From Eutreptiella sp. 'Long Island Sound 2002' (lineage: Eukaryota > Protista > Euglenida): 64,000 nucleotides of DNA. The notes under the pieces were generated by a model that saw nothing but the letters and a program-made list of their open reading frames with translations, was not told the origin of the DNA and made no database searches. How positions within the stretch are numbered: position 1 is the first letter of the stretch; each line of letters begins with the position of its first letter. The position numbers and the translations under genes are program-made. The stretch spans positions 38,068,001-38,132,000 of the forward strand of contig OZ038378.1 of NCBI GenBank assembly GCA_964036045.1. Direction: 5' to 3'. Below, piece after piece: positions 16,120-55,030 of this stretch.

Positions 16120-16560
16120 ATTTATCGTTGGACGGATAGATCATCGAAGCGACCACAAATGGGAGGTGACTAGCTGGGCGGGTATGGAGTATGTTTCCCT
16201 GATCGTCCAGAGTGCAATGTTTCGGAATTCATACCAGTGTCGTAGTCATAGACCATAGGCAGCAGAGAACTCCAGCAGTGTTGAAGGGATTGTACGAGGT
16301 AACAGTGTACCGACGGACCTGTGTGATGTGCGATTCTGAGTATATTGTCGATTGTTGTAATTTGTGGGCAAAGCAATGGCACTACAATACTTGGTGCACT
16401 GCGGCTGGGCCATTGGCCCATGCAAAGCTACGGAAATTTTTTTTCATTTTGGTGGAGTCTTATGGAACACTCGTGACAATGTATCATGTGCCTTCACATG
16501 CGGAACGGACAGAAAATGAACGCGTTGATGATATGGCGAGGCAACGTAGGCTGAGAAGTT
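16120..16560 (+). pseudogene. RNase H (RNase HI-like) domain of a retroelement, disrupted
   Basis: WTD(R)S (16129), GYGVCF..NVSEFIP..T..REL, CDSEYIVDC.N.W..QW..N.W, HVPSHAERTENERVDDMA. Confidence 0.85.
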
Positions 16561-17145
16561 CCTTGTGGACTGCCAACAAGCTCTTGCTCACAGTGCATGA
16601 GCAGAGGGAGAGGGAGGAGGCAGGGCTGCACCTTCACATTGTTGCGGTCAGGGAGAGCAGGCCGCTGCCGGAACCCGATGATTTTGTACCATGCACACCG
16701 GAGTCAGTTCAAAGCAAGGCCGGCTGCAGCGTGATAGTGTGTCCACCAGATGTAACGCGGCCCTCAAACAGAGTTTTGAGCAATTTGGATACACCATTGC
16801 CACATCGCTCACAAGCCTTTACGGACTTTGAAGTGTTGTGGGTAGCATGTGCAACATGTGTGTACCAGCTAAACGCGTTGTACATACACGAGCACCAATG
16901 ATGTACCAAGCCAATAAATGACCAAAAGGCATCCAGGGACTTCAGCAACATTGGACAATATGAATTTTCGGACCACATTGGAGGGGTTGGTACCTTGGTT
17001 GATGAAAACCAGGTGAAGGCCAAGTGGTTGCTACCCTGGATCGGTTCCAAGGTGTGCTAGCCCGAGTCACATGCGGAACTGACAGAAAATAAACGGGTTG
17101 ATGAATTGGCCAGTCAAGGTAGAATGAGAAGTCCACTCCCAACAA
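16495..17145 (+). repeat. First ~1.1 units of the 572-bp RNase H-derived satellite
   Basis: tcacatgcgg..gacagaaaatgaacg.gttgatga at 16495 recurs at ~17068; the unit is contiguous with the RNase H ORF. Confidence 0.85.
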
Positions 17146-17172
17146 TGGGGTGCAGCCAAGGAAGGGTGGCCT
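17146..17172 (+). repeat. Left TIR of element B (outer 27 bp; its last 15 bp form the LINE TSD)
   Basis: 26/27 match to the reverse complement of 37589-37615. Confidence 0.9.
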
Positions 17173-18549
17173 CCTTTCTGAGTGTCTATTTTTTTTCGTG
17201 TCTATTTTTTTTCGGTGCTATTTCTTCGTCCATGGAAGACCCCAACGTGGGGCAGAATGCAATGCCGCACCTCCCGGAGGTGGCAGAGATCTACCCGACC
17301 GTCCCGGCCGACATACCTGCCGCCCTCGGGATCGGATGGACGCACCTCTGTCGAAGGAGTTACTGGTACGACCACCGCTCCACTTCCGACCCCTTCGACT
17401 CCAATGAGAGCAGCAACTGTCGCCACGCTGGAAAACTACGTGCAGGCCTGGGCCACTACTGAGGACCCCAGCGATATCAACGACCAAGCACCTCACAACC
17501 TGGCCAACTGTTTCAACCCCCTGGACCTCTCTGACGATCCCGGGACCATCACTGCGCAGAAGGGGAACGAGACCAAGTACACCTGCTTTAACCCAGCGAA
17601 AGACGAAGTCATCGACAAGTCGGGCGTCCCGAGGACAGAGATTGACGATGCCGAACAACGACAGGCAATCATGGAGACGGCCACCAGCCAGGATATCAAG
17701 TATGCCCCCGATACATCTGCCCTGCGCAACGCTATGGAAGTCGGCGAAGTGATGGACACGGCTGAGACCACAGAGGTCAACGAGAACGCATCTGACGAAT
17801 TACCCGGAGCCTACAATACTATGGAGATCCACTGTGAGGATGATCCGCCAGCCATCGAGTTCAACTCCGCCGCAGTCGCCCGCCACTCAGGCCCGAGGAT
17901 AGAACGAGACCGGATGCCGGAAGATGCACCGCTGCGAGCCAGGTTTGCCTCTCTCCCAAACGGGTCCCAAACGGCGGTGCAGAGCACAGCTCCCCGCCAC
18001 GACGACGACAACCAGCCACCAGACACAACCGACAGGACAAAGAACAACATGACGGCGGTGCGGAGCCCTGCTCCCCGCCCTTGGCACACCACCGTACGGC
18101 ACAACAAAACAAATTCACGGAGGCCACGACCCCTATGCGTTATAGGATTGATGACACACATCATCCTGTTCCTGCTACACAACGGAGACAGCGGAGCGGA
18201 GCCCTGCTCCTCGCCAACCAACACCACCAACCTGACAATGTACCAAAACACAACGACACATCACGGAATGGCCAACGGCGGAGCGGAGCGATGCTCCCCG
18301 CCAACAACGCCAACCGCAGTGACGGTGAGGAGCCCTGCTCCCCGTCCGCGCCATGACCCAAACCACACCATACACGCTGTGCATGACACCGTAACAGTGC
18401 TACACCAACGACTGGGCATACACCCTGTGTTGCATATAACACCGCTGCCATTGCATATACCGCCATGCTCGCACACTAGGAATAGCCGCAAAACGGCGTT
18501 CTCGCATCGATCCACCCCCCCCTCCCAACCCCACCCTGCGTGGCGTTGT

Positions 18550-18777
18550 AGGTCGGTGATCGTGAGCGGCGCCGGAACCCTGGTTTGCCTTCCGGCAGCC
18601 AGGTCAGTCAAAGGCATCAAACATGCCCTCCATCACCTCACGCCACACCTACCCCCACCACAACACCAGCGGCTGTTCTACCAAGGACAGCCGCTCGGAG
18701 ACCACGACCCGACCCCGACCACGACCACAACCGGACCCATCCACCTGACGCTGCGACTGGTGGGTCTGAAGGGAGGA
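18550..18777 (+). other. Ubiquitin-like domain ending in di-Gly
   Basis: 76 codons: ..SVKGIKHAL..LPPPQHQRLFYQGQPLGD..IHLTLRLVGLKGG, compared with ubiquitin IPPDQQRLIFAGKQLED..LHLVLRLRGG. Confidence 0.7.
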
Positions 18778-18799
18778 GGCAGACGGTCGCAGAGAGACA

Positions 18800-18878
18800 C
18801 AGACAGCGACAGCACCAGCGACAGCACCAGCGATAGCGACAGCGACAGCACCAGCGACAACGACAGCGACAGCTACAG
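18800..18878 (+). repeat. (ACAGCG/ACCAGC) low-complexity repeat encoding a Ser/Asp/Thr tract
   Basis: gacagcgacagcaccagcgacagcaccagcgatagcgac... Confidence 0.8.
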
Positions 18879-20958
18879 CCGACGGAAAAAGTCTCGGAAG
18901 CGCAGCTCCAAGGGCGAACTCACCCAGGCTCTGAGGGCCATGACGTCCCTTGCGGACTCTGTGGCAGGAATCTGCCGGTCGATCCAGCAACCACAGCAAA
19001 CTGTGACGCATGAGGCCCTAGCGCCACAGCACAGCGCTGACAGACACAATGACCAGGCCCGCACCCAGGCAGAACCGTCACAAGGCGAGGCGGCACCACA
19101 GGCACGACGACGCTAGTGCGTGAGCATCGACACGCGCCACGGGGAACGACAAGTCTCCCTGCATGAACCCGGACAGCAGCCTCAACACCCACCCCTCTGC
19201 CCCCCAACTCCTGTGGCGGAACCGCTGCGTTTCTACCACAATCCTCACAGCCCGGAGGTGCCATGTGCGGTCCCTGCCCTCCAACACGGACACAGGGACG
19301 TAAACCGACGGCCCCTCGCACAGCAGGCGGCCACACGCATGGAATGCACGGCGGCGCAGCCGGTGTACCACAGTGAACCACTGTATGTACCACAGACACA
19401 GCACGAAACACAGGTGCAGTATCGAGCAGTCGTCGACCACCATGGACAGCACATACTGCCAGAGGACAGTTCAGGAACCTGGGCCAGGTTCAGCGAGCAG
19501 AATGCAGCTGCGCTCGAGATCCTGCGAACCGAGCCACCGATGCAGCGACGCACAGATGCCGAACCGGCAACGGGATATCCGGAACATGTGGCTCTCAAGG
19601 GATCGCACACGACCACCGGCGGACCCGCATGCCCCCCGCCAACAACCAACGGACAGTGTTGTCTATCCGATTCCCGAACCGGCGCCGGCAGCGGGGCACC
19701 CACAACAGCACCAGCAAGTGTACTACACACCGGACGCACCAGACCAGCACCCCGTGCACCAGCCCGGACCCCCTCAGATCCACGGGGAAAGGGCACCGTG
19801 GCACGGTGCACACGCAGAGCAGGCACCAGAACAGGGACCGGAACCATCCGGCTGGGGACAGGCTGGGGTTTTCCCCTTCACTGGAGGCTGGGACGTGGTG
19901 GCCGCGCAACAAGAACAGCAGGCACCCCCCCGGCAGCCGCGAGGAAGGAGGCGCCGACCCAGGACCCACAAGGGGGAACTGGGGACGGTCATCCCCAACA
20001 TCCCCACCATTCCACACCCTGACCAACGAGATACCGTGTCACCTGATGTGCTGGTATGTGCATACATAAGCATGAGGGGAACAGCGGGAGAATGTGGCTA
20101 CCTTCCCAACACCTGCCTTGCGCCATTCTCCACAGTGAACAGCCGGAACGGACAACCTGGAACGGACCGCGTCGACCGCACGGTGACCGCACGGTGGCAA
20201 GTCGGCCGTAAGGATTTTGCTCCTCAGACATGCACGCTAATGACTGGTGCCGCAGGCACCCACTCGGCCGGGACCTTGGCCACTGCCTACCAAGCCGCAG
20301 TTTATTTGCCCGGGTACACTTGCGTGGGCGCTTTCTTTGCCCCCGGTGATGCTCGGCGTGCTGACCAGCAACGGACAGCACAGGACAGCCAGACAGGAAT
20401 GTCATATATGGCCCCAACCCGGCCATCAACAGCACGGGACCAGACAGACAGGCAACGGGCTGCGAAGGCGACAAGCCGTGTGAACGTGCCCACCTGCCGA
20501 CCATGCGTGTGGATGGCAGGCGCTACTGGCACCCACACGGTTGGGCCCTTGGCCACCGCCTATTCTCCCGCTCTACACACCGGTGTGGGCGCGCCCGACG
20601 CCCCCGGTGATGCCCAGTCTGCTGACCAGCGACAGGCAGTACACGATAACCAGACAGGAATGTCATATATGGCCCCAAACCGGCCATCAGCGCGCGGGGA
20701 CGCCGCGCAGGCCCCGACTGACGGGCATCGGACTAGACAGGCACCTGCGACAATGGCCAGAATACACGCATTTCCTGGATCAGATCCCTTCGTGCTTTTG
20801 CCACAGTATCGTGAGGTACCCCCCTACCCCTCGGGACACCCCCCCCCCTCATGGGAGAGGAACTGCCTTGCGACCCACCATCTAGGCAGGCACCCCCCAA
20901 CAATCGACAACACCCCCCCGCCCTCATTGGGTTGTTGCGGGACCGCACGGTCGACGGT

Positions 20959-20982
20959 GATATCGAAAAGAACCCGGGGCCT
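20959..20982 (+). other. 2A-like StopGo motif 1 (LLRDRTVDGDIEKNPGP)
   Basis: Matches D(V/I)ExNPGP. Confidence 0.85.
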
Positions 20983-21645
20983 GAAGATGCGCGGACCACA
21001 GGGAACGACATCCCCCCCCAGCACAGAGAGATGGTCACCCGGCTGGCTAGCGAGATCGAAACGGCCTCCAACCCCCACTACCCCGCTAAACTGTACAAAT
21101 ACGCGACACAGGCACTCACGGAGGCACTGCAAAGAAAGCGACGCGCATCCACCCCTCCCCTAGGACACAACACACCCGCACCACGTGCAGAATCGTCTTC
21201 CACACATGGCACGTTGGAGGTGCCATCACCAGAGGCACCCCCGGTGCACGGGATACATGACCCAGGCACACCACGACCCGCCCCCTTGGAAACTTCCGAG
21301 TTGACTGTAAAAACACAAAAACACCACTTACCGGTAGGATTAAACATGACCACAGCCATCGATGTAGTTTGCCCCCGATGCAACATGGCCGACTTTGTGT
21401 ACTTCCGCTGCACCGGATTCAAGTATTTTGCCATACACCAACCCGATACCCCAGACTTGGTACCACGGCGACTCTACAACGTGATGTCCCCAGACCCCTT
21501 ATACCCACGACAAGAATCCTGGCAAGAGGCCATACCAGCCACCACCTCGTAAACCTACCACACGCCAGTACCACACGAGACGGGCCCCCAACCGACCGTG
21601 GAGGACACCCCGGACGGATGGTTACGGGACGTCACAAGTGACGGG

Positions 21646-21669
21646 GATGTCGAACCTAACCCCGGTCCC
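21646..21669 (+). other. 2A-like StopGo motif 2 (WLRDVTSDGDVEPNPGP)
   Basis: Matches D(V/I)ExNPGP. Confidence 0.9.
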
Positions 21670-22104
21670 AGCCCATCAACCCCCTCAGCGAAACGCACGC
21701 GATACAACCAAGACACGCTGCATATGTACCAAACACCTAGGATGCTACGCAAACACACCACGGACAACACTCCCCCCCGACAAAAACGGAGGCGCGCAGA
21801 CCACGTACCCATGGCGAACCAGGAACATCAAACGTCAACACTGGTATACAACCACCGCAAACGGAAGGCGGACGGGGAACCTACCCACCAACCGACACCC
21901 AAAAGGCACCAGAGCACGACCCACTGGGACGAGCAGCACCCCCCCGGGAACCAAGGAAACCTACGCATGAAACGGACATATGGAGACCCCACTGACCAAG
22001 TCAGGGGTGACTCACCACGCAGGAAGATCCGCCGAACACAACGCCTACGCAATCACCCTTACCCGAGACCAACGAGCTGGGTCCACGACCCGACTCAAGA
22101 CGGA

Positions 22105-22128
22105 GACACAGAGCCCAACCCCGGACCA
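22105..22128 (+). other. 2A-like motif 3 (WVHDPTQDGDTEPNPGP; V>T variant)
   Basis: Same W..D.T.DGD.EPNPGP pattern as motifs 2 and 4. Confidence 0.75.
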
Positions 22129-22302
22129 ACCACACCCGCAGTGGAACGCACAGCCCAGACCACACCGCCGGGGGACATGGGGACTGAGGTGCACAACGCT
22201 CTGCCGGCGCTCTTGCTGGCGGCACTACCACCCCGCCAGCCCAACGATGACGTGCACAAACACGCGTGGAACACGGATGACGGTGGACGGGCCCTAGAGG
22301 AC

Positions 22303-22413
22303 TGCCCCGTATGCTTGGACAGCCCCGCGGATACACGCCTGAGCTGCGACCCCAGGCACAGGCTGTGCCAAGATTGCGCCAACGACCCACGACTGCTACG
22401 ATGCCCACTGTGC
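22303..22413 (+). other. C3HC4 RING finger
   Basis: CPVC-x10-C-x3-H-x2-C-x2-C-x8-CPLC. Confidence 0.85.
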
Positions 22414-22881
22414 CGCGGCACTCTGCAACCAAAGATACCCCCCCCACCCCCGGATGACCCAACATATGCGTATTTCCACATACAAATCTACAACAACAGA
22501 CTCCTCACATACACGGATCACTGCGCAACTCCCAACCCGCCAGTGCATTTGGCATACAACTTGTGGAAGAGGCTTACTAGCACAACAGGCCAACTGTGGG
22601 AGGTACACCTCAGGACTGACCTCCCATACTACCACATCGCAAGACACAGAATGCATGTCCTCACGGGCACGAGGGAGGATTTCCAAATGGCCATGTCCAT
22701 ACGATACTGGCTCTTTCTGGCCCAACCCTTGCAACACGACCTGCTCCTGGAGTATGACATCACCGACTCGGTGCCACCCGACCACCCATCGGACGTACGC
22801 TATGACAGGATCACATCCGTTACCGCAGACGTGGTCTACCCACAACACACCCAATGGGTGCCGGATGCCACGCAGGATGGT

Positions 22882-22905
22882 GATGTGGAACCAAACCCAG
22901 GCCCG
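22882..22905 (+). other. 2A-like StopGo motif 4 (WVPDATQDGDVEPNPGP)
   Basis: Matches D(V/I)ExNPGP. Confidence 0.9.
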
Positions 22906-25523
22906 GATAGCAACGCCCCGCCCCATGGCATGGTGCGCACCCTGACAGAAAACTACGAAAGACACACGTCCGGGCTGCACACTAGTGTGCAAGACCAAGG
23001 GGACGAAATGGAAAACCCGGACATCCTGGAGTCAACCTCAAACCCCCCATCAGAGGATACCACTGAGCGGGAGCCCCCCCAGAATGGGGAACCTAGCACA
23101 CCACCTGACCAACGCACCGAAGGGCTTAGTTACGTCCCCCCTCCACCCCAAGAGGATACACAGGCGTACACATTCCACGAAGACGGCAACAAGCCACTGG
23201 ACAAACTACCCATACACACACCTACAGAGTACCAGCTCATAGAAGAACTCGTAAAGCTCAACACAGGCGCGTCACAACAACCACTGACAACAGCAGAACA
23301 AGACACATTGAAAGCATCAGTTGTGTACGACGCACAAACCAGGCTAAAAACGTACTTAACAAAGCACCCAAACCGTGCAGTGACCACAGAGCACATCTGG
23401 AGGCAAACACAGGAAGGGGTATGGTATGACAGGAACACCTACCAACTCCCTCTGTTTGCGCAACACAAACTGCGCGACGTCATGGCGGTGAGGCACGAGG
23501 CAGACTCTGACGGTATACACACGGTATCCGAGATGGCTGAGGCACACCAATACACAGTACACACGGAAGCCGACCATCAAGGGAACCCCGACATCCGGAA
23601 CAAGACATACTTACTACTGCCACATGCAACCGGGACCCGCCGCAACCATGAACGACGCATGCAGCGCGCCGCCATACAAACGGAATGGGGCGGAAGCGAG
23701 GACGAACGGGTTGACCAAGTCCTACGGGCACTCGGCGACCCGGGGGCCAAGGAGCTGATCCTGGCTTACGAGGCGGACCGCCAAGGAATAACAGCACTAC
23801 AAACCTACCGCATGGACTGCCTCCACCGCGCCCCCCTGCACAAACTGGCCCGCTATGTGAGGGGCGTATACCAATTCGACAAGATCCCCGTACGCAAGTG
23901 GTCCCCGGAACACGAAACAATGGTCGACCACCTACAACCCAAACCCATCATGGCCCTCCACCTAGACAACACCATAAAGATGGGACACGAGCCCACGCAC
24001 AAAACATACGCACTCACGAAGGGCACACCCATACAAGTGGGACTGGAAGACCGCACAGACACACTACAACCAGAACCGGCCAAGACTACAATCGTAGTGG
24101 AGTGCCCACCAAAAACGGGCATTAGGACACGAGACGCATTTATGAAACGGATCAACGGCCACCAGTCTGACGTCGCATCCACCATAGCAAGCAAAGACCC
24201 CCACAACACTTTTTGGTGGAAGTGCGCATCCGAACACACCGCGGGGCAAAGTGGGTCGCACGCCTGGAGACTACACCTGCCCATGCAATTGCTGCCTCGC
24301 TTGGCACAAGCACTGCAGACCATAAAACAAGAGAAGGAAAACGCCGGCAACCCTGGGCCCTACTGGCTCACCGAAACGGACTATGAGAGTCTGTATATAC
24401 TGAGACAACAATACACGGAACACACAGAAGACAGAATAACGTCCGTACAGGAGATACTGGACGACCTAGACAGAGAACAACTCGAGCTAGGAAGGAGCGT
24501 TGCATCCTTCCTCAAGGGGTTCCGACCAGTGGACTCATACCGTCTACTGGTACAGTTCCACCCAGACGCAGACCGACGCTTGATTGCCCAACTACTAAAG
24601 GGCATGAAAAGCTACGACGTGGTCCACGTGATGACCAACGTCATCCTCAACCGCAACAACTGGACACAGTCCACGAGCCGCTCTAGGGACATCAAGCGGC
24701 CACCAAAACCGACTAGGCGCGACACCACGACGGTGTTCGTAGGGTGGACACAGGGCGCAGGAGACGACACGGCGAAAGTTGTGGCATCATTCTTTGGATG
24801 CTGGACCAGCTGGAAGCCGGAACCCGACATGTGGAGCGACGCGGGCTGCACCTACGCCTCCCTACAATACCAGCACGCCACAGCAGTGGCCCTCAGTGCC
24901 GGACAATACATCGGAGTGGCACCCGGTGAATACGTCCACATCACGCTAGAAGACGACAACACGGATACACAGGCGGCAGAGCGCATCGACCGGATGCTCG
25001 CACACAAAATGCCGCAGGAAACGGGCGACGACGCGGCCTTCAGGAGACGAATGAAGGCAGGGAAACAACTGGGCTCAGACATGATGACTGAACGCGTCAT
25101 CAAGGAAATCAACAGGGAAAAACAGCTGTTCGCAGAGCCGGAACCCATCAACGTGGCAGACTGGGACGAGGCCATCCTGAACGAACTCGGCCATACCACT
25201 AACGACGACATCCCATCAGACACCCACCCAAAGACGGCCACCATGGACACGGATGTAACCCCCGTCTAGCAACCAGACAACCCGGCAAAATTAACCAAAA
25301 CACACGCACGGCAGCCAAACCCAGCACAGAAAACCAAGGCCCACAACAAGACACCACAGAAAACACCCACAAAAACAACGCCACCACCAAAAAAGAAGAA
25401 GGCAGCACCTGCATCGCCGCAATCCACACAACAAGCAGACAGTGCGCCTGCCTTCACCGTGGACAACAGACACAAGGGGAAAGGAAAGGGGCTGCCAAAA
25501 AACCCGCAGGGCAAAGGGAAAAA

Positions 25524-28500
25524 GTGAGGTGCCTGTTCCTCATGCCCTCCCTCGCCATTATGGCCCTCCTCCTACTCGTGGCCCCCACGCATACTGAGGG
25601 GCCGGTATATCTACTCCCCGTGAACCGGAGAGTCCGCAGACGATATACCCCGCCATTACGCCACGGGCACGGTTACGCACGGGGCCCCGACCCCCATAGT
25701 TACCGTATATGGCAGCCAGGCATACTCCTCCTCTATATCATCTGTTTCTTCCACACCCCGACCGCCCCTATCACGGCAGCGCCATGCCGCTACCATGCAC
25801 CTGTCACGATCACCAAGGTAACCAGCCCATATAACACGCGGTATAACACCAACTGGGTCCTCCAATGCGGAGACGTGCACCCCAACCCCGGGCACCGTAC
25901 GATACATCAGCTCCGGCGGGGATGCCGGGATGTGCGGGGACCCCCCATACCGTTACTTGACATTGAGGAGTATGCTCAACACTTGGTGGTGAACACCAAT
26001 CGACGGTATGACAGTCTAGACGACGCAACCACCGCAAAGGACCACGACATGAAACTGGCCTCCTGGAACATACAAGGAGCACAGGGATCCGTCAGTCCAC
26101 AACGCTGGGCCAATACCCTCCACCTAATCAGCCAGTGCCGTATCGACCTATGCGGCATCCAGGAGTATAACCCCGGTTTCCCTAAACCAGGGGCAGCCAC
26201 AACAGCACTCAACAACGACTACAAGTGCTACGCTGCGCCAGGGACCGAACCACGGATAGCTTTCATTGTCCGCAACGCTGTGGTCCCCCACATACTCGAA
26301 ACGTTATACTCACCTAACGGTTTGGCAGGGGCCATCAGGATACAGCTCCCAAACAGCCCCCCGCACCGTTGCGTGTGTATACTCCAAATTCAACCAACAG
26401 GACAAACAAGAGGTAGACCTATTTCTGCAGTCCCTGAGACCATACAACATCATTATGGGGGACTACAACGATGACATTTGGTCACCCAACCCGACACGCC
26501 CGTGGCAGGAAGACCTGGCCAGCGGAGTGTTCCTGGACCCTTTGCATGCTAGCAGCCAACCCCCGGACCCCCGGCAATACTATACCCGCAAACCTAGGCA
26601 CGGACGCCCACGTCGACTAGACGCCATCTTGATTAGGCAACAAATACCGAACATACCCTGGACCTACTATGACACCATACAGATGCCCATATCGGATCAC
26701 GCTTTGGTCCTGCTTGGGGTCCGATGGAGGATAGGGGCCCCCGACCCACCACGCAGAAAACCACAGCCCACAGTCGCGAAGTGGTATACTAAACAATTTC
26801 AACGGTCTACTAACACCATATCCACCCTACCCGTAACAAACAACGACCCACCTCTACGCACGGCACGACGGATACTATCGGCAATAGCGTACGCGGCGCG
26901 ACCACGACAACCCACACGCGCAAAGACAGCAACAACCGCAAGCTAGTCTGAAACCACGGACCCCAAAGCACGGTTACGAGAGTACGGGGAAATACAAGAG
27001 CAACACATACGGAGACAAGTCGGCAAACTGCGCCGAGCAGCAGTGCACAAATCGGGCTATTTTTATAAAATGGTCAAGAGATGGCGCACAGGACTCATAG
27101 CCCAAGACACACCGCGGCCCCCAATAGGAGGAACACAGTACGTACTCAACCACTTTGCGGGCGACCCAACATACGACGAAGACGCGTGCCGGCAACTCAT
27201 ACGGAAACATGTACGGCACCGCACGTGGAACACAACGACCCCCACATACGAGGAGTACATGCGGTGCCTTCGGGCACCAAAGAACAAATCTGCCGGACCT
27301 GACGGTGTCCCCCCACACCTGCTCCGGCACCTACCGGACCACGTGCAGCGGGAACTATACCAGGCAATCGTTGCAGTCTGGAACGGACAGCACATCCCAG
27401 TGGCTTGGCTGCAGTCCAGGGTAGTGCTCATCTATAAAAAGAAAGATCCTCAGGACCCACGAAACTACCGGCCAATCTACGTATCCACGGCCACATATAG
27501 TATACTCACACGCCTCCTCCTAACGCGTATATCGGGGGCCTTGCCCCCGTGATTATTGGACATACAACACGGCGCCACACAGGGCCGAAACACCACAACG
27601 TTAGCCACGAAACTATTAAACGACCTGCACGTTGAGGATGGATACGTGGCCCTACTTGATGTGGCCAAAGCTTTTCCTTCAGTCCCCCGGCCCATGCTGA
27701 CTGGGATCGTCAAGGAGGCAGGGGCTCCAGAAAACATCATACGGATGTTGGGGGAAATCTACCAGCATACACCGGCCGTACTAACCCTACACGGAAAGGA
27801 CCTACCCATGCAACCCACCAGGGGTATGAAGGAGGGGTGCCCCCTCTCCCCAACACTATTTCTCCTATACTACGACATACTGTTACGTGAAACCATGGAA
27901 CGGTGCCCGGGAGCCCGACTTTACGTGTTCGTTGACGACATAGCTGTGCGTGCGCCCACGAAGGAAGCATTGCTGCACACCCTGGATACCCTCCATGACG
28001 TGGCCTACACAATGGGGTTACGCTTCAACAAAGACAAAACTGAAGTGTGCCACTGGGCTAAGGACTACGACCTAACGCCCATCACGTGGCGGCATTAGCT
28101 CATCCCCGTGCGGCCACCTATAATGACTTACCTGGGGCATGTGCTTGCCCACCCCACACAAGAAGACACAGCATGGGACATGGTCACCACACAACTACAC
28201 CACGACGTAGCGGCGTACAGGACCCTGCCGCTCAACGCTTACGAAAAGGTGGCTATCATAAACGCCGTCCTTATCCCCCGTTGGACGTACAGGGGACTGT
28301 TCCTCGGAAATAGGACACGAATGGCGCACTGGGACGACATGCTGCTGCAGTTCATCAGGGATACACCCGGGGTAGAACCACAAATGAACAAACACCGGCT
28401 GACTACCAACCTCAGTCACGGGGGACTAGGCCTACGCCAGCTGTGGTGGTCCTACATCACCCGGTGGGTCACAATAGGCCAACAGGAACTGCAGCACACC

Positions 28501-33350: not shown

Positions 33351-33354
33351 GTCA

Positions 33355-42200: not shown

Positions 42201-42203
<3 letters not shown>

Positions 42204-42623: not shown

Positions 42624-44922
42624 CAGAGGGAGAGGGACGAGCCAGGGCTTGACGTCCACATTGTTGGGGTCGGGGATGGCACGCCACCAGCACAGCCGGA
42701 TGATTTTGTACCATGGATACCGGAATAGGTTCCAAGTGCGGCGAGCTGCAATGCGATAGTTTGTCCACCAGATTTAACGCGATTCTCGGACAAAGTTTTC
42801 ATCGATTTGGATACACCAGCACTACAAAGCTCACAAGACTCTACAGACTTTCAACTGTAGTGGGCAGAATATGCAACATGTGTGTTCTGGCTGAACACAT
42901 TGTAGATGTACGGGCACGAATGATATAGTTAGCCAATAAATGACCAAAAGAAATTGAGGCACTTCAGCAACATTGGACAATATGAATTTGCGGACCACAT
43001 TGGTGGATGTGGTACCTTGGTTGATCAAAACCACCGGGTGCCGGTTGCTTGCTACCCTGGAGCGGTTCCTAGGGCTGCCAGCCAAAGTCACATGCTGGAG
43101 TGACGGAAAATGAACAGGTTGAATAATTGGCCTGTAAAGGTAGACGGAGAAGTCCCCTGTGGACTGCCACCAACCTTCTGTTCACAGTGGATAAGTAGAG
43201 AGAGAGGGGGGAACCAGGGCTGGACCTGCAGGTTGTTGGCGTCAAGGAGGGCACGCCACCAGCACGGCTGCATGATTGTGTACCTTGTACACCGCAATTG
43301 GTTCCGAGAAGGGCAAGCTCCAACGTGATATTTGGTCCGTCCACCAGATTTAACACGACCCCCAAACAGTGTTTTCATGAATTTGAATACACCATCGCCA
43401 CAGCACTCATAGGCCTCTGCAGCCGTTGAAGTGTAGTGGGCACTATGTGCAACATGTGTGTACTGGCTGAACACATTGTACATACACTAGCACGAATGAT
43501 TTATTTACCCAATAAATGACCAAAAGGCATTGAGGCACTTCAACAACATTGAACAATATGCATATGCGGACCACATTGGTGGGTGTGGTACCTTGGTTAA
43601 TGAAAACCACCGGATGCTACGCGGGTGCTATCGTGGATCGGTTTCAAGGGTTGCCATCCCAAGTCGCATGCAGGACTGACAGAAAATGAACGGGTTGATG
43701 AATTGCCTAGTCAAGGTACATTGAGACGTCCACTGTGGACTGCCAACAAGCTTCTGCTCACAATGCATAAGGAGAAACAGAAGGAGAATCACGGCTTGGA
43801 CCTGCACATTTTTTGGGGTTAGGGTGAGCACGCCACCACCACAGCCGGATGATTTTGTTCCGTGGACAACAGAATCGGTTCCAAGTGGCGCGAGCTCCAG
43901 CGTGACAATTTGTACATCAGATTTATCATCATCCTCAGACAGAGTTTTCATCGATTTGGATACACCATCGCCACAACACTCAAATGATTCTACAAATTTT
44001 GAAGTGTAGTGGGCACTATGTGCAACATGTGTGTATTGGGTGAACGCGTTGTACATACATGAGCCGGAATAATGTAATTAGCCAATACGTGACCAAAAGG
44101 CATTGAGGCACTTCGAAAACATTGGACAATATGAATCTCCGAACCACATTGGTGGGTGTGGTATCTTGGTTGATAAAAACCACCGGATGCGAGCGGGTTG
44201 CTAACCTGGAGCGGTTCCAAGGGCTTCCAGCCTAAGTCACATGCGGGCTTGATAAAGAATGAACGGATTGATGAATTGGCCAGTCAAGGCAGACTGAGAA
44301 GTCCTGTGTGGACTGCCAACAAGCTTGTGCTCACAGTGCACAAGGCGAGAGATAGAGAGGGGGGAGCTAGGGCCGGACCTGCACATTGTTGGTGTCACGG
44401 AGAGCACGCCACCACCACAGCCGGATGATTTTGTACCATGAGCATTGGAATTGGTTCCAATTGGGGCGAGCTGCAGCGTGATAGTTTGTACACCAGATTC
44501 GATCGACCCGCAAACAGGGGTTTCATCAATTTGGATAAACCATCACCACAAAACTCACAGTACTCTACAGACTTTGCAGTGTAGTGGGCAGTATCTGCAA
44601 CAGGTGTGTGCCGACTGAACACATTGTACATGCACGAGCACGAATGATGTACTTAGTCCATGAATGACCAAAAGGCAATCAAACATTTTAGCAACATTGG
44701 ACAATATGAATATGCGGACCACATTGGTAGGTGTGGTACCTTGGTTGAGGAAACCCACTTGATGCTAGGTGGGTGCTACCGTGGATCTGTTCCAAGGGCT
44801 GCAAGCCCAAGTTGCATGCGGGATCGACAGGAAATAAACAGATTGATGAATTCCCCACTCAAGGTAGACTGAGAACAATTTCCCTGTGCACTGCCATCAA
44901 GCTTCTGTCCACGGTGCATAAG

Positions 44923-44974
<52 letters not shown>

Positions 44975-46131
44975 CAGAAACCCGGCATTGGATCTACACA
45001 TTATTTGGGTGTGGGACATTGTTGGGGTCAAGAAGAGCATGCCACCACCACAGCCGGATGATTTTGTACCATGGACACCGGAATTGGTTCCAAGTAGGGC
45101 GAGCTTGAGCGTGATAGTTTGTACACCAGAAGTACTGCGACCTTCAGACACAATTTTCATCAATTTGGATACGCCATCGACACATCACTCACAGGATTCT
45201 ACAAACTTTCAAGAGTAGTGAGCAGTATTGGCAACATGTGTGTACTGGTTCAACACATTGCACATACACGAGCACGAATGATGTATTTAGCCAATAATTG
45301 ACCAAAAGGCATTCAGGCCCTTCTGCAACATTGGATAATATGAATCCGCGAACCACATTGGTGGATGTGGTACCTTGGTTGATGAAGAACACCGGATGCC
45401 AGGTGGTTGTTGGCCTGTGTCAGTTCCAAGGGCTGCCAGCCCCAGTCGCATGCGGGACTGACGGAAAATGAACGGGTTGATGAACTCGCCGGTCAAAGTA
45501 CATTGAGAAGGGCCATGTGGACTGCCAACAAGATTTTGCGGACAGTGCATAAGGACAAAGAGAGCGAGGAGCCACGGCTCGACCTGCACATTGTTGGGGT
45601 CAAGAAGAGCATGCCACCACCACGGCCAGATGATTTTGTACCATGAACACCGGAATTGGTTCCAAGTAGGGCGAGCTCAAGCGTGATAGTTTGTACAGCA
45701 GAGTCAACGGGCCGCTCAGACAGAGTTTTCATCAATTTGGATGCACCATGGCGACATCATTCAGAGCACCCTACAAACTTTTAAGTGTAGTGCGCAGTAT
45801 GTGCAAGAGGTGTGTACTGGCTAAACACATTGTACATACACAAGCACGAATGATGTATTTAGCCAATAAATGACCAAAACGCATTCGCAAAGTTCATCAA
45901 CAACGGACAATATGAATGTGCAGACCACATTGGTAGGTGTGGTACCTTGTTTGACGAAACCTACTGAATGCTAGCTGGTTGCTACCCTGGATCCGTTCCA
46001 AGGGCTGCAAGCCCAAGTTGCATGCGGGACTGACACAAAATAAACCGATTAATGACCGGGCCAGCCAAGGTAGACTAAGAAGAAGTGCCCTGTGGACTGC
46101 CATCAAGCTTCTGCTCACGGTGCATAAGGAC

Positions 46132-46167
<36 letters not shown>

Positions 46168-47867
46168 GAGCCCATCCTGGACCTACACATTTTTTGGGCA
46201 GGGGAGAGCACGCCACACCACAGCCGGACGATTTTGTAACGTGGACACCGAAATTGGTTCCAAGTAGGGCGAGGTCCAGCTTGATAGTTTGTACACGAGA
46301 TTCGACGGGCCACTGAGGCAGAGCTTTCATCAATTTGGATACACCATGGCTACAACATTCACACGACTCTACCGACTTTCACGTGTAGTGGGCAGTATGT
46401 GCAAGAGGTGTGTGCCGGCTAAACACATTGTACATACAGGAGCACGAATCTTTTATTCAGCCAATAAATGACCAAAAAGCATTTAGGCACTTCAGCAACA
46501 TTGGACAATATGAATCTGCGGACTACATTGGTAGGTGTGGTATCTTGGTTGATGAAACCACCGTATGCCAGGTGGTTGCTGTCGTGGAGCGGTTCCAAGG
46601 GCTTCCCACCCAAGTCACATGCGGGACTGACAGAAACCAACGGGTTGATGAATTGGGCAGTCAAGGTAAACTCAGAAGTCCCCTGCGGACCGCCAACAAG
46701 TTTCTGCTCATAGTACATAAGGAGAGAGAGAGGGACGAGGCAGGGCTGGACCCGCACATTGTTGCGGTCAGCGAGAGAACGCCGCCACCATAGCCGGATG
46801 ATTTTGTACCATGGACACCGCAATTCATTCCAAGTAGGGCGATCTCCAATGTGATAGTTTGTCCATGAGATTCAACGCAACCCTGAGATAGAGATTTCAT
46901 CAATTTGGATACACCATTGCCACAGCACTTATAGGCCTCTACATATTTTGAGGTGTAGTGGGCAGCATGTGCAATATGTGTGTGCTGGTTGAACGCATTG
47001 TACATCCACGAGCAGGAATGATGTACTTATCCAAAAAATGACCAAAAGGCATTGAGGCACTTCAGCAACATTGGACAATATGAATCCGCGAACCACATTG
47101 GTGGATGTGGTACCTTGGTTGATGAAGAACACCGGATGCCAGGTGGTTGTTGGCCTGTGTCAGGTCCAAGGGCTGCCAGCCCCAGTCGCATGCGGGACTG
47201 ACGGAAAATGAACGGGTTGATGAACTCGCCGGTCAAGGTACATTGAGAAGGGCCATGTGGACTGCCAACAAGATTTTGCTCACAGTGCATAAGGACAAAG
47301 AGAGGGAGGAGCCATGGCTCGACCTGCACATCGCTGGGGTCAAGAAGAGCATGCCACCACCACAGGCAGATGATTTTGTACCATGGACACCGGAATTGGT
47401 TCCAAGTAGGGCGAGCTCAAGCGTGATAGTTTGTACACCAGAGTCAACGGGCCGCTCAGACAGAGTTTTCATCAATTTGGATACACCATGGCGACATCAT
47501 TCAGAGCACCCTACAAACTTTTAAGTGTAGTGGGCAGCATGTGCAAGAGGTGTGTACTGGCTAAACACATTGTACATACACAAGCACGAATGATGTATTT
47601 AGCCAATAAATGACCAAAACGCATTCGCACAGTTCATCAACATTGGACAATATGAATGTGCAGACCACATTGGTAGGTGTGGTACCTTGTTTGATGAAAC
47701 CTACTGAATGCTAGCTGGTTGCTACCCTGGATCCGTTCCAAGGGCTGCAAGCCCAAGTTGCATGCGGGACTGACACAAAATAAACCGATTAATGACTGGG
47801 CCAGCCAAGGTAGACTAAGAAGAAGTGCCCTGTGGACTGCCATCAAGCTTCTGCTCACGGTGCATAA

Positions 47868-47903
<36 letters not shown>

Positions 47904-50900
47904 GAGCCCGGCCTGGACCTACACATTTTTTGGGTAGGGGAGAGCACGCCACACCACAGCCGGACGATTTTGTAACGTGGACACCAAAATTGGTTCCAAG
48001 TAGGGCGAGGTCCAGCTTGATAGTTTGTACACGAGATTCGACGGGCCACTGAGGCAGAGCTTTCATCAATTTAGATACACCATGGCTACAACATTCACAC
48101 GACTCTACCGACTTTCACGTGTAGTGGGCAGTATGTGCAAGAGGTGTGTGCTGGCTAAACACATTGTACATACAGGAGCACGAATCTTTTATTCAGCCAA
48201 TAAATGACCAAAAAGCATTTAGGCACTTCAGCAACATTGGACAATATGAATCTGCGGACTACATTGGTAGGTGTGGTATCTTGGTTGATGAAACCACCGT
48301 ATGCCAGGTGGTTGCTGTCGTGGAGCGGTTCCAAGGGCTTCCCACCCAAGTCACATGCGGGACTGACAGAAACCAACGGGTTGCTGAATTGGGCAGTCAA
48401 GGTAAACTCAGAAGTCCCCTGCGGACCGCCAACAAGTTTCTGCTCATAGTACATAAGGAGAGAGAGAGGGACGAGGCAGGGCTGGACCTGCACATTGTTG
48501 CGGTCAGCGAGAGAACGCCGCCACCATAGCCGGATGATTTTGTACCATGGACACCGCAATTCATTCCAAGTAGGGCGATCTCCAATGTGATAGTTTGTCC
48601 ACAAGATTCAACGCAACCCTGAGATAGAGTTTTCATCAATTTGGATACACCATTGCCACAACACTTATAGGCCTCTACATATTTTGAGGTGTAGTGGGCA
48701 GAATGTGCAATATGTGTGTGCTGGTTGAACGCATTGTACATCCACGAGCAGGAATGATGTACTTATCCAATAAATGACCAAAAGGCATTGAGGCACTTCA
48801 GCAACATTGGACAATATGAATCCGCGAACCACATTGGTGGATGTGGTACCTTGGTTGATGAAGAACACCGGATGCCAGGTGGTTGTTGGCCTGTGTCAGG
48901 TCCAAGGGCTGCCAGCCCCAGTCGCATGCGGGACTGACGGAAAATGAACGGGTTGATGAACTCGCCGGTCAAGGTACATTGAGAAGGGCCATGTGGACTG
49001 CCAACAAGATTTTGCTCACAGTGCATAAGGACAAAGAGAGGGAGGAGCCATGGCTCGACCTGCACATTGCTGGGGTCAAGAAGAGCATGCCACCACCACG
49101 GCCAGATGATTTTGTACCATGAACACCGGAATTGGTTCCAAGTAGAGCGAGCTCCAGCGTGATAGTTTGTACAGCAGAGTCAACGGGCCGCTCAGACAGA
49201 GTTTTCATCAATTTGGATACACCATGGCGACATCATTCAGAGCACCCTACAAACTTTTAAGTGTAGTGCGCAGTATGTGCAATAGGTGTGTACTGGCTAA
49301 ACACATTGTACATACTCAAGCACGAATGATGTATTTAGCCAATAAATGACCAAAACCCATTCACACAGTTCATCAACATTGGACAATATGAATGTGCAGA
49401 CCACATTGGTAGGTGTGGTACCTTGTTTGATGAAACCTACTGAATGCTAGCTGGTTGCTACCCTGGATCCGTTCCAAGGGCTGCAAGCCCAAGTTGCATG
49501 CGGGGCTGACACAAAATAAACCGATTAATGAATGGGCCAGCCAAGGTAGACTGAGAAGAAGTGCCCTGTGGACTGCCATCAAGCTTCTGCTCACGGTGCA
49601 TAAGGAGAGAGAGAGACAGACACACAGAGAGAGAGAGAGAGGAGCCCGGCCTGGACCTACACATTTTTTGGGTCGGGGAGAGCACGCCACACCACAGCCG
49701 GATGATTTTGTAACGTGGACACCAAAATTGGTTCCAAGTAGGGCGAGGTCCAGCTTGATAGTTTGTACACGAGATTCGACGGGCCACTGAGGCAGAGTTT
49801 TCATCAATTTGGATACACCATGGCTACAACATTCACACGACTCTACCGACTTTCACGTGTAGTGGGCAGTATGTGCAAGAGGTGTGTACTGGCTAAACAC
49901 ATTGTACATACAGGAGCACGAATCTTTTATTCAGCCAATAAATGACCAAAAAGCATTTAGGCACTTCAGCAACATTGGACAATATGAATCTGCGGACTAC
50001 ATTGGTAGGTGTGGTATCTTGGTTGATGAAACCACCGTATGCCAGGTGGTTGCTGTCGTGGAGCGGTTCCAAGGGCCTCCCACCCAAGTCACATGCGGGA
50101 CTGACAGAAACCAACGGGTTGATGAATTGGGCAGTCAAGGTAAACTCAGAAGTCCCCTGTGGACCGCCAACAAGTTTCTGCTCATAGTACATAAGGAGAG
50201 AGAGAGGGACGAGGCAGGGCTGGACCTGCACATTGTTGCGGTCAGCGAGAGAACGCCGCCACCATAGCCGGATGATTTTGTACCATGGACACCGCAATTC
50301 ATTCCAAGTAGGGCGATCTCCAATGTGATAGTTTATCCACGAGATTCAACGCAACCCTGAGATAGAGATTTCATCAATTTGGATACACCATTGCCACAGC
50401 ACTTATAGGCCTCTACATATTTTGAGGTGTAGTGGGCAGCATGTGCAATATGTGTGTGCTGGTTGAACGCATTGTACATCCACGAGCAGGAATGATGTAC
50501 TTATCCAATAAATGACCAAAAGGCATTGAGGCACTTCAGCAACATTGGACAATATGAATCTGTCGACCACATTGGTGGATGTTGTACCTTGGTTGATGAA
50601 AACCACCGGATGTCAAGTGGTTGTCAGGCTGGACCAGTTCCAAGGGCCGCCAGCCCCAGTCGCATGCGCGGCTGACACAAAATGAACGGGTTGATGAATT
50701 GGCCAATCAAGGTCGATTGAGGAGTCCCGTGTGGACTGCCCGCAAGATTTTGCTCGGGGTGCATATCGACAGAGAGAGGGAGGCGCCACGGCTGGACCTG
50801 CACATTGTTGCTCGGGTCAGGGTGAGCACGCCACCACCACAGCTGGATGATTTCCTACCATGGACACCGGAATTGGTTCCAAGCAGGGCGACCTCTAGCG

Positions 50901-53900
50901 TGATGGTTTGTACACCAGATTCGACGGGCCACTAAGACAGAGTTTTAATCAATTTTGATACACCATGGCTACAGCATTCACAAGATTTTACACACTTTTA
51001 AGTGTAGTGGGCAGTATGTGCAAGAGGTGTGAACTGGCTAAACACATTGTACATACAGGAGCACGAATGATGTATTTAGCCCACAAACGACCAAAAGGCA
51101 TTTAGGCACTTCACCAACATTGGACAATATGAATCTACAGACCACAGTGGTAGGTGTGGTACCTTGGTTGATGAAACCACCGGATGCCATGTGGTTGCTG
51201 CCCTGCAGCGCTTCCAAGGGCTTCCAGCCCAAGTCACATGCCCGATGGATAGTAAATGAACGAGTTGTTCAGTTAGCCAGTCAAGGTGGACTGAGAAGTC
51301 CCATGTGGACCGCCAACAAGTTTCTGCTCACGGTGCATAAGGAGAGAGAGGGAGGGAGGAGCCACGGCGGGACCTGCACATTGTTGCAGACGGGGATAGC
51401 ACGCCGCCACCACAGCCGGATGATTTTGTACCATGGACACCTGAATTCGTTACAAGTAGGGCGATCTCCAATGTGATAGTTTGTCCACGCGATTCAACGC
51501 AACCCTCAGATAGAGTTTTCATCAATTTGGATACACCATTGCCACATCACTTATAGGCCTCTACATACTTTGAAGCGTAGTGGGCAGCATGTGCAACATG
51601 TGTGTACTGGCTGAACACATTGTACGTACACGAGTAGAAATGACGTACTTAGCCAATAAATGACCGAAAGGCATTCACACACTTCATCAACTTTGGACAA
51701 TAGGACTCTGCAGACCACAGTGGTAGGTGTGGTACTTTGGTTGATGAAACCAGTGGATGCCAAGTGGTTGCTAGCCTGGACCGGTTCCAAGGGCTTCGAG
51801 CCCAAGTCATATGCGGGACTGACAGTAAATAAACAGGTTGATGAATTGGCCAGGCAAGGTAGGCTCGGAAGTCCCCTGTGGACTGCCAACAAGGTTCTGC
51901 TCATAGTGCATAAGAAGAGAGAGAGGGAGTAGGCAGGGCCGGACTTGCACATTGTTGGGGTTAGGGAGAATGCACCACCACCACAGCCGGATGATTGAAT
52001 ACAATGGACACCGGAACGGGTTCCAAGTGGGGCGAGCTCCAGTGTGATAGTTTGTGCACCAGATTCAACGCAACACCCAGACAGAGTTTTCATCAATTTT
52101 GATACACCATCGCCTCAGCACTCACAGGACTCTACAAACTTTCAAGTGTGCTGGGCAGTATGTGCAACATGTGTGTGCTATTCGAACGCATTGTACATAC
52201 ACGAACACGAATTATGTACTTAGCCAATAAATGACCAAAAGGCATTCAGGCACTTCAGCGACATTCGACAAGACGAATGGGCGGACCGCATTGGTTGGTA
52301 CAGTACCTTGTTTGATGACAAATACCGGATGTCAAGTGGTCGCTACCCCGGATCGGTTCCAAGGGCTGCAAGCCCAAGTCACGTGCGGGACTGACAAAAA
52401 ATGAACGTGTTGATGAATTTGCTAGTCAAGGTAGATTGAGAAGTCACCAACGGAGTGCCAACAAGCTTCTCCTCAGAGTGCATAAGGAGAAAAAGAGGGA
52501 GGACCTAGGGCTGGACCAGCACATTGTTGGGGTCGGGGAGAGCACACCACCACCACAGCCAAGTGATTTTGTACCATGGACACCGAAATGGGTTCCAAGT
52601 AGCGCCAGCTCCAGCGTGATACTTTGTACACCAGATTCAACCCGACCCTTGGACAGAGTTTTCATCGATTTGGATACACCATCGGCACAACACTCACAAC
52701 ACTCTACATACTTTCAAGTGTAGGGGGCAGCATGTGCAAGAGGTGTGTACTGGCTGAACACATTGTACATACACGATCACCAATGATGTACTTAGCCAAT
52801 GAATGACCAAAAGGCATTCAGGCACTTCAATGACATCAGACAATATGAATCTGCGGACCACATTGGTCGGTGTGGTACCTTGGTTGAAGAAACCCACCGG
52901 ATGCTAAGTGGTTGCAAGCCTCGATAGGATCCAAGAGCTGCCAGCCCCAGTCGCATGCGGGATCGATAGACAATGAACGGGTTGACGAATTGGCTAGTCA
53001 AGGTAGATTGAGAAGTCCCGTATGCACCGCCAACAAGCTTCCTCTCACAATGCGTAAGGACAGAGAGAGGGAGGAGCCAAGGCCGGACTTACACATTGTT
53101 GGGGTCAGGGAGAGCACGCCACCACCACAGCCGGATGATTTTGTACCATGGACACCGCAATTAGTTCCAAGTAGGGTGAGCTCCAGTATGATAGTTTGTA
53201 CACCAGATTCAAGGCGACCCTTGGACAGAGTTTTCATCGGTTTTGATACACCATCGCCACAGCACTCACAGCACTCTACAGACTTTCTATTGTAGTCGGA
53301 AGCATTTCCAACAGGTACGTACTGGCTAGACACATTGTGCATACAAGAGCACAAATGATGCAGTTAGCCAATGAATGACCAAAAGGCATCTAGGCACTTC
53401 AGCGGCATTGGACAATATGAACTTGCGGGCCGCACTGGTTGGTGTGGTACCTTGGTTGATGAAAACCACCGGATGCCACGCGGTTGCTACCCTGGATCAG
53501 TTCCAAGGGCTGCAAGCCCAAGTCACATGCGGGACTGGCAAAAAATGAACGGGTTGATGAGTTGGCCAGTCACGGTAGGCCGAGAAGTCCCCTCCGGCAT
53601 GCCAACAAACTTCTGCTCACAGTGCATAAGGAGACAAAGAGGGAGGAGGCAAGGCTGGACCTGCACATTGTTGGGCCTAGGGAGAGCACACCATCGGCAC
53701 AGCCGGATGGTTCTGTACCATGGACACCAGAATTGGCTCCAAGTAGGGCGAGCTCAGGCGTGATAGTTTGTACACCCGATTCAACGGGCCGCTCAGACAG
53801 AGTTTTCATCAATTTGGATACACCATCGCCACAACACTCACAGCACTCTACAAACTTTGAAGTATAGTGGGTAGTATGTGCAACATGTGTGTAGTGGCTG

Positions 53901-55030
53901 AACACATTGTACATACACGACGATGAACGACGCACTTACCCAATTAATGACCAACGGGCATGGACGCACTTCACCAACATTGGACAACATGAGTCTGCGG
54001 ACCACATTGCTAGGTGTGGTACCTTGGTTGATGAACGCCACCGGATGCCAGGTGGTTGCCTCCGTGGATCAGTTCGAAGGGCTGCCAGCCAAGTTGCATG
54101 AGGGAGTGACAGAAAATGAACGGGTTGATAAATTTGCCAGTCAAGGTAGATTGAGCAGTCCCGTGTGGACTGCGAACAAGCTTTGGCTCACACTGCATAA
54201 GAACAGAGAGAGGGAGGGGCCACGGCTCGATCTGCACGTTGTTGGACTCATGGAGAGAACACCACCATCGCAGCCGGATGATTTTGTACTATGGACACCT
54301 GAATTGGTTCCAAGTAGGGCAAGCTCTAGCGTGATAGTTTGTACACCAGAATTACCGCGACCCTCGGACAGAGCTTTCATCAATTTGGATGCAACATCGC
54401 CATGACACTCACAGAACTCTACAAACTTTCAAGTGTAGTCAGCAGTATGTGCAACATGTGTGTACTGGCTGAACACATTGTACATACACGTGCACAAATG
54501 ATGTACGTAGCCAATAATTGACCAAAAGACATTCCGGCACTGCAGCAACATGGACAATATGAATCTGCAGACCACATTGGTGGATTTGGTACCTTGGTTG
54601 ATGAAAACCACCAGATGCTAGGTGCTTGCTAGCCTGGAGCGGTTCCAAGGACTGCGTGCCCAAGTCACATGCGGGATTGACAGTAAATAAACGGGTTGAT
54701 GAATGGGCCAATCAAGGTAGACTTGGAAGTCCCCTTTGGGCTGCCAACAAGCTTTTGCTCACAGTGCATAAGGCGAGAGAGAGGGGGAGGAGGCAGGGCC
54801 GGACCTGCACATTGTTGGATTGAGGGAGAGCACACCCCCACCACAGCCGGACGACTTTGTACTATGGGCCGGAATGAGTTCCAAATAGGAGGAGCTCCAG
54901 CAGGATAGTTCGTACACCACATTGAACGCGACCCTCGGACAGAGTTTGGATACCAATTTGGATACACCATCACCACATCACTTAGAGGACTCTACAGAGT
55001 TTCAAGTGTAGTGGGCATCATGTGCAACAC
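42624..55030 (+). repeat. Main array of the ~572-bp RNase H-derived satellite (~21.5 units)
   Basis: Anchor caacattggacaatatg at 42973, 43549, 44122, 44697, 45331, 45903, 46501, 47071, 47643, 48237, 48807, 49379, 49975, 50545, 51120, 51693, 52264, 52836, 53408, 53980 and 54550. Confidence 0.95.
45331..50545 (+). repeat. Three-monomer higher-order repeat (~1738 bp x3)
   Basis: Spacings 572/598/570, 572/594/570 and 572/596/570; near-identical ORF-track peptides recur at 45407/47147/48883. Confidence 0.9.

What the first reader, a model, noticed from the sequence alone, without database searches (positions are those of the whole stretch)
16120..55030. A satellite caught at its birthplace: tandem amplification of the 3' end of an RNase H gene
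Seen: the RNase H frame (WTD..REL..CDSEY..HVPSHA..NERVDD) runs directly into the first 572-bp unit, and every unit begins with the RNase H C-terminal motif SHAGLTENERVDELA. After removing elements B and C the array is continuous and in register (194+375 and 222+349 bp across the two insertions): ~14.2 kb, ~25 units. Known: satellites can derive from retroelement segments. Inference: progenitor and array remain physically linked, giving a datable chronology (retroelement, then array, then B and C, then the LINE).
Basis: partly seen in the sequence, partly recalled or inferred. Interest (0 to 1): 0.7.

Follow-up and report, generated by a model that had tools for sequence, protein, structure and literature searches.

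The report
Fossil tandem array from retrotransposon tail
Twenty-five decayed head-to-tail copies of a 572-base piece sit directly behind the broken RNase H gene they begin in, likely the tail of a dead LINE retrotransposon amplified once in an algal genome; this is a clean example of a known way in which tandem repeats arise, not a new one.

Summary
A broken RNase H frame runs into unit 1 of a 25-unit, 572-bp array. The array is 14,201 bp and in register once insertions B and C are removed. One sequencing-run contig spans head, unit 1, the start of unit 2 and B's end with no difference. The RNase H belongs to a dispersed, decayed family found on nine other contigs, and its nearest intact relatives are C-terminal domains of LINE ORF2 proteins. 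The monomer is the last 114 codons, the stop and 227 non-coding bases. Units form a star about 11-12% from their consensus and decay almost neutrally. That consensus is closer than unit 1 to the family (25 sites to 3), so amplification was likely one early burst. Two claims are weakened. This is a small fossil array, not a shown satellite. 'Birthplace' is unproven, because junction-bearing units absent from the window exist elsewhere in the genome and the array's right end is cut off. Precedents exist in maize, Chenopodium, Lathyrus, chicken and cetaceans.

The parts
16084..16493 (+). Head: broken RNase H domain (WTD..., DSEY, HVP) of a beheaded probable LINE ORF2; 3 stops, 1 frame change
   Evidence: PF00075; tblastn of P0003/P0009/P0145-8; stops; 5' limit approximate, from where relatives of the upstream element stop matching
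16494..17066 (+). Unit 1 (573 bp), in frame with the head; most divergent unit (86% to consensus); stop codon 115 reads TTG
17067..17145 (+). Unit 2, first 79 bp, up to element B
17146..37615 (.). Element B: 20.5-kb DNA-transposon-like insertion with 34-bp terminal inverted repeats (1 mismatch once the LINE is removed), flanked by AA; family not identified
   Evidence: related protein pieces at 285-4941; no Pfam, NCBIfam or PDB match
17173..30843 (+). 13.7-kb LINE inserted in B's left terminal repeat; endonuclease-like, RT and weak RNase H matches, poly(A), 15-bp target duplication with 1 mismatch, five 2A-like motifs; not the array's parent
37616..38758 (+). Rest of unit 2, unit 3 (545 bp), first 108 bp of unit 4
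38759..42623 (.). Element C: 3.9-kb insertion with 27-bp terminal inverted repeats (2 mismatches), internal inverted arms and minisatellites; no Pfam match in the frames scanned
42624..55029 (+). Rest of unit 4 and units 5-25; ends in mid-unit, 18 bp after the stop codon
45446..50659 (+). Higher-order repeat: three units (about 1738 bp) in three copies, 2.0-3.3% apart; its phase begins in the 3' part of unit 8
   Evidence: contig depth about 3x single copy
55030..56540 (.). Unrelated 72-bp / about 624-bp repeat that cuts off the array's right end
   Evidence: no partner terminal repeat and no further unit in the window

Best explanation
A 572-bp segment that begins inside a broken RNase H frame is repeated 25 times directly behind it; the frame is likely the C-terminal end of a beheaded LINE, and the segment was likely duplicated at this spot and amplified in one early burst, then left to decay. 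Shown: the monomer is the last 114 codons of the frame (last RNase H motif plus an acidic, proline-rich tail), a TAG stop and 227 non-coding bases; all units share one junction; the monomer tree is a star with end branches of about 0.10-0.15; decay is near neutral; B sits in unit 2, C in unit 4, a LINE in B; a three-unit block was later triplicated. Inferred: the parent is an APE-RT-zinc finger-RNase H LINE (only a sister family was found joined to RT); the burst came soon after insertion, because the array consensus is nearly the family sequence; the first duplication was an illegitimate recombination, followed by quick unequal exchanges or one rolling-circle event, which these data cannot tell apart. 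The array probably has no function.
For: Frame continuity and PF00075. One contig covers 14421-17168 with 0 differences at single-copy depth in run X1; three contigs with 0 differences cover most of it in X4; 15900-16700 lies in one piece in 4 of 4 runs. 9 of 9 looked-up close relatives lie on contigs of nine other lengths; 5 of 5 array-type peptides lie on a contig of the same length as the window's own. A profile search found 4 longer proteins, 3 with RT plus C-terminal RNase H; P0003 is 48% identical to P0145 over 132 residues; in a quick tree of 61 domains the close family and these LINE domains are split from 35 other RNases H by a branch of support 98. The family ORF ends at the same place in P0007 and P0018, and 23 of 24 other units keep TAG at codon 115. 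Outside copies side with the array consensus at 25 sites, with unit 1 at 3 (one a tie artefact), neither at 4. Pooled pN/pS 0.75; 24 premature stops in 2035 codons. Star tree.
Against: At least three junction-bearing sequences from the runs are absent from the window: a 648-bp tandem contig matching none of the units tested, a junction with a 26-base insert, and a variant junction in 2 contigs. The 648-bp contig is closer to unit 1 than any window unit in one segment (28 mismatches against 43 +/- 3, minimum 38). The array's right end and the parent's 5' part are missing, so neither boundary of the event is seen. No member of the close family was found joined to RT; the profile that found the RT fusions contained sister-family rows. 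The runs are one study and may be the window's own source data, and they are contigs, not long reads.
Confidence: 0.62

Rival explanations
1. The parent LINE subfamily already carried a short tandem duplication of its 3' end and spread it; this locus is one copy in which it expanded (as Ogre 3' UTR arrays do).
For: Junction-bearing units outside the window; about 5-6 other copies of the sequence just before the junction by depth (267 against 39.7 at 16467-16493); units 2-25 share two amino-acid changes against unit 1 plus outside copies; unit 1 has a mild excess of silent changes (12 of 56 fourfold sites against 13.4%, p=0.065).
Against: No contig shown links another head to a junction (the listed head-bearing contigs end too early); the outside junctions may be the displaced distal part of this same array beyond 55029; the silent excess is not significant; all 5 array-type peptides looked up come from the window-length contig.
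Confidence: 0.23
2. The RNase H is part of a decayed cellular gene or a non-LINE mobile unit, not a LINE, and the array is an exon-scale tandem duplication.
For: No RT, endonuclease or zinc finger lies upstream on this strand; the domain resembles RNase HI; a pyrimidine tract ending in CAG precedes it.
Against: The family is multi-copy and decayed; the best full-length relatives are LINE ORF2 proteins with the same layout of RNase H plus a low-complexity tail.
Confidence: 0.1
3. The array is an assembly artefact.
For: The three-copy block is 97-98% identical; no long reads could be examined.
Against: Other units differ by 14-24%; the left junction lies in one exact contig; a contig reproduces unit 23's mismatch pattern exactly; the block's contig has 2.6, 3.1 and 2.7 times single-copy depth in X1, X2, X4.
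Confidence: 0.02

Closest known systems
CficCl-61-40 satellite from tnp2B of CACTA elements, Chenopodium (PMC7320549; abstract and first part of Results read)
   Same: A fragment of a transposon's coding domain is the start monomer of an attached array of 8-94 copies.
   Different: There a 40-bp monomer from a DNA transposon and an abundant satellite; here a 572-bp monomer from a probable LINE, low copy and decayed.
CRM1TR / CRM4TR tandem repeats, maize (PMC3648361; abstract and Discussion read)
   Same: Local arrays wholly derived from a retrotransposon segment, dated by later nested insertions, one array possibly split into two loci.
   Different: LTR/UTR source, gene-conversion homogenisation, centromeric; here coding 3' end of a non-LTR element, star-like decay, chromosomal position unknown.
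Ogre 3' UTR-derived satellites, Lathyrus sativus (PMC7004042; abstract and Discussion read)
   Same: Retrotransposon 3' region as source of tandem arrays; this is the rival model.
   Different: Short arrays are built into the parent there; not shown here.
LINE-derived satellites: chicken HinfI (CR1 3' UTR and partial ORF2), common cetacean satellite (L1 3' end), PROsat (as listed in review PMC9659126; passages only, originals not read)
   Same: Monomer overlaps the end of a LINE ORF2 and its 3' UTR.
   Different: Established high-copy satellites; no RNase H domain mentioned in the passages seen.
APE-RT-zf-RVT-RNase H LINE ORF2 proteins P0145-P0148 (unnamed ENA records)
   Same: RNase H at the C-terminus followed by a low-complexity tail; P0146 aligns across the head into unit 1.
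   Different: Sister family (30-48% identity), not the direct parent.

Membership tests
Satellite DNA | Head-to-tail monomers of fixed length | tested here: met
   25 units, 545-634 bp, consensus 572
Satellite DNA | Long arrays / high genomic copy number | tested here: not met
   14.2 kb here; summed contig depth at most about 70 times single copy at one place, an unreliable and probably inflated figure
Satellite DNA | Concerted evolution (homogenised monomers) | tested here: not met
   Star tree, mean identity 79.5%, weak distance trend rho -0.20; only one late three-unit triplication
Satellite DNA | Heterochromatic or centromeric location | not testable with these tools
   No genome, FISH or ChIP data
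TE-derived tandem repeat attached to its parent | First monomer is a continuous part of the parent sequence | tested here: met
   Frame runs from head into unit 1; exact contig
TE-derived tandem repeat attached to its parent | Parent copies elsewhere lack the tandem | tested here: inconclusive
   Other heads exist but so do outside junctions; no contig long enough
APE-type LINE with RNase H (parent) | RNase H domain in ORF2 | tested here: met
   PF00075
APE-type LINE with RNase H (parent) | RT and endonuclease upstream in the same element | tested here: inconclusive
   Absent in this copy; present in sister family P0145, P0147, P0148
APE-type LINE with RNase H (parent) | Dispersed, decayed, multi-copy | tested here: met
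   9 of 9 relatives on other contigs; same assembly inferred, not shown
APE-type LINE with RNase H (parent) | 3' tail and target-site duplication | tested here: inconclusive
   No poly(A) at unit ends; both ends of the parent copy are lost

The most novel reading that the evidence does not exclude
The array was laid down in a single rolling-circle event from a 572-base circle of the LINE's own 3' end, at or just after retrotransposition, and this RNase H LINE family seeds such coding-tail arrays at several loci, making it a recurrent generator of proto-satellites in a euglenid genome.
Probability: 0.15. Interest if true: 0.6.

Novelty: new member of a known kind. Interest (0 to 1): 0.3.

Why it matters
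It is a well-preserved case of a tandem array still attached to its source, with a reading frame that tells ancestor from copy and nested insertions that give a relative order. It shows an array that arose in a burst and then stalled instead of becoming a satellite, in a lineage (likely a euglenid) whose repeats are little described. The process itself is documented in several plants and animals, so the gain is an example, not a mechanism. It would matter more if the family proved to make such arrays repeatedly.

Tried and rejected
No whole genome is held, so other arrays could not be mapped. Single-sequence protein searches found only the window's own protein or nothing among longer proteins; the Atlas gave no usable hit for the unit's peptide. 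Metagenome scans: no relative; one 20-base match that is chance. No RNA holder was listed, and nothing was laid from the one guessed RNA run; no conclusion drawn. The inserted LINE was rejected as parent: tblastn shows no match to the head or units and its RNase H is a long, separate branch. A coding or protein-repeat function of the array was rejected (pN/pS 0.75, stops, frameshifts). A two-source origin (unit 1 from a different element copy) was tested and is inconclusive (p=0.065). No microhomology beyond a shared T was seen at the junction; the parent's sequence past the unit end is unknown. Element B's family was not identified. The endonuclease reading of 14576-15100 (-) is by eye only; Pfam and BLAST did not confirm it. 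Run X5 (organism B label) holds identical pieces at depth 2-4 and was not counted as independent. Earlier-findings look-ups returned nothing. Literature searches for Euglena + non-LTR + RNase H and satellite + RNase H domain + monomer + retrotransposon + tandem array returned 0 papers; the library lacks most subscription journals, and no supplements were read. The careful tree did not finish; the quick tree is cited, built from the 60 best-scoring of 123 domains.

Full report
Setting. The window holds decayed tandem chlorophyll a/b-binding repeats at about 9-14 kb (PF00504; self-matches). Polyprotein light-harvesting genes of this kind are, from my own knowledge, typical of euglenids, so the host is likely a euglenid; this was not tested. 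No whole genome is held. The region is a nest of mobile-element remains.

The array. Unit 1 (16494-17066) finds 24 further copies up to 55029 and none elsewhere in the window. With B (17146-37615) and C (38759-42623) removed the array is 14,201 bp, 25 units, the last 365 bp; consensus 572 bp. Units 2 and 4 rebuild to 569 and 572 bp across the insertions. Pairwise identity is 76-86% except for units 9-17, where a three-unit block occurs three times at 2.0, 2.8 and 3.3% divergence. The tree is a star with end branches near 0.10-0.15 plus that block; with six block copies dropped, mean identity is 79.5% and falls only weakly with distance (rho -0.20, permutation p 0.012).

The head. ORF 16203-16898 matches RNase H (E 1.5e-8) and crosses the unit start in frame at HVP|SHA. 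The head has three stops and one frame change near 16272-16275, so it is dead. Nothing upstream on this strand matches RT, endonuclease or zinc finger. The sequence upstream has its own one or two relatives at 80-85% that stop near 16041 and is probably part of a minus-strand LINE whose RT lies at 6700-7896.

What the monomer is. The consensus reads 114 codons and then TAG, kept in 23 of the 24 other units; unit 1 has TTG. Two outside relatives end one codon later (P0007, P0018). So the monomer is the last RNase H motif, an acidic proline-rich tail, the stop and 227 non-coding bases. The units decay almost neutrally: pooled pN/pS 0.75 and 24 premature stops in 2035 codons over 18 units. The stop counts printed include the natural stop; one search corrects this.

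The parent. A search of 1.84 billion representatives gave 142 hits; the best are decayed copies of the same head and tail. Nine of nine looked up lie on contigs of nine other lengths (seven show the head, two only the tail); five of five array-type peptides lie on a contig as long as the window's own. That they come from one assembly is inferred. A profile of 22 family and sister-family rows found four longer proteins; three carry RT, all four carry a C-terminal RNase H with a weak zinc-finger match before it, and one has a faint endonuclease match. P0003 is 48% identical to P0145 over 132 residues, and P0146 aligns from the head into unit 1. In a quick tree the close family and these LINE domains each form a supported group and are split from 35 other RNases H. 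The parent is thus likely a LINE, but only a sister family was seen joined to RT. The LINE inside B is not the parent.

Direction and timing. Where unit 1 and the array consensus differ in protein, outside copies side with the consensus at 25 sites, with unit 1 at 3 and with neither at 4. The consensus is therefore nearly the family sequence, and each unit, including unit 1, has decayed from it by about 11-14%. This points to one burst soon after insertion. B lies in unit 2; a 13.7-kb LINE with poly(A) and a 15-bp target duplication lies in B's left terminal repeat; C lies in unit 4. B and C cannot be ordered. The LINE has 4 stops in 1172 codons against 1.2 per 100 in the array, very roughly 3% decay; the triplication at 1-1.6% per copy is as young or younger. 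No absolute dates are possible without a mutation rate.

Is it real DNA? In run X1 one 2748-base contig covers 14421-17168 with no difference at depth 39.7, and 15900-16700 lies in one piece in four of four runs. A contig reproduces unit 23's mismatch counts exactly (17/2 and 26/2). The contig from the triplicated block has 2.6-3.1 times single-copy depth in three runs (motif located). These runs are one study, may be the window's source, and are contigs rather than long reads.

Against a unique birthplace. A 648-base contig that holds a unit end, the junction and most of the next unit matches none of the window units tested and is unusually close to unit 1 in one segment. A junction with a 26-base insert and another variant junction are also absent from the window; five of the seven loose-end motifs tested are absent. 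Other heads joined to unit sequence exist too (records 2, 7, 18). These outside junctions may be the rest of this array, pushed beyond the window by the repeat that starts at 55030, or arrays at other loci, or a tandem built into the parent. I could not decide.

Comparison. Arrays whose first monomer is a piece of a transposon's coding domain are described in Chenopodium (PMC7320549); local retrotransposon-derived arrays dated by nested insertions in maize (PMC3648361); arrays built into Ogre 3' UTRs in Lathyrus (PMC7004042); and satellites from LINE ORF2 ends and 3' UTRs are listed in a review (PMC9659126). Two searches for an RNase H-derived or euglenid case returned no paper. It works like these; it does not meet the copy-number or homogenisation marks of a satellite.

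Verdict. Real, well preserved, a new member of a known kind. Best reading 0.62, built-in tandem 0.23, non-LINE parent 0.10, artefact 0.02. Interest 0.3.

Noticed in passing
window 17173-30843 (+); motifs at 20959, 21646, 22105, 22882, 25872: The 13.7-kb LINE inside B has five 2A-like ribosome-skipping motifs (three fit D(V/I)ExNPGP, two are variants), in front of the endonuclease, with ubiquitin-like and RING-like weak Pfam matches in the upstream frames. Passages read describe one 2A at the ORF2 N-terminus of non-LTR elements (PMC3708506) and up to three per eukaryotic gene (PMC12338488). Activity untested; possibly more novel than the array.
   Followed up: partly
window 8970-14100 (+): Decayed, apparently intron-less tandem light-harvesting polyprotein repeats (periods about 685 and 737 bp), with very high summed contig depth at the right edge, lying between two pieces of a probable minus-strand LINE; may be a captured or retrocopied gene carried by a mobile element.
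   Followed up: no
window 6700-7896 (-) and 14576-15100 (-): RT (PF00078 E 3.5e-11) and an endonuclease-like frame seen by eye only; probably one split LINE, head-to-head with the RNase H copy.
   Followed up: partly
window 14200-14530: Very high-copy short repeat (summed depth over 1000 times single copy).
   Followed up: no
window 285-4941 and 30859-37615: Two related DNA-transposon-like elements (27-45% protein identity) with GGAAGGGG/CCCCTTCC-rich subterminal repeats; no family match found.
   Followed up: partly
window 55030-56540: 72-bp palindrome-containing tandem repeat with a higher period near 624 bp that truncates the array.
   Followed up: partly
window 44920-44980, 46132-46167, 47869-47903: A GA microsatellite, from the ERERE codons of the old reading frame, has expanded in units 8, 10, 13 and 16.
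   Followed up: no
window 38106-55029: CpG sites in the units diverge faster than others (18.3% against 11.3%), which may hint at past methylation.
   Followed up: no
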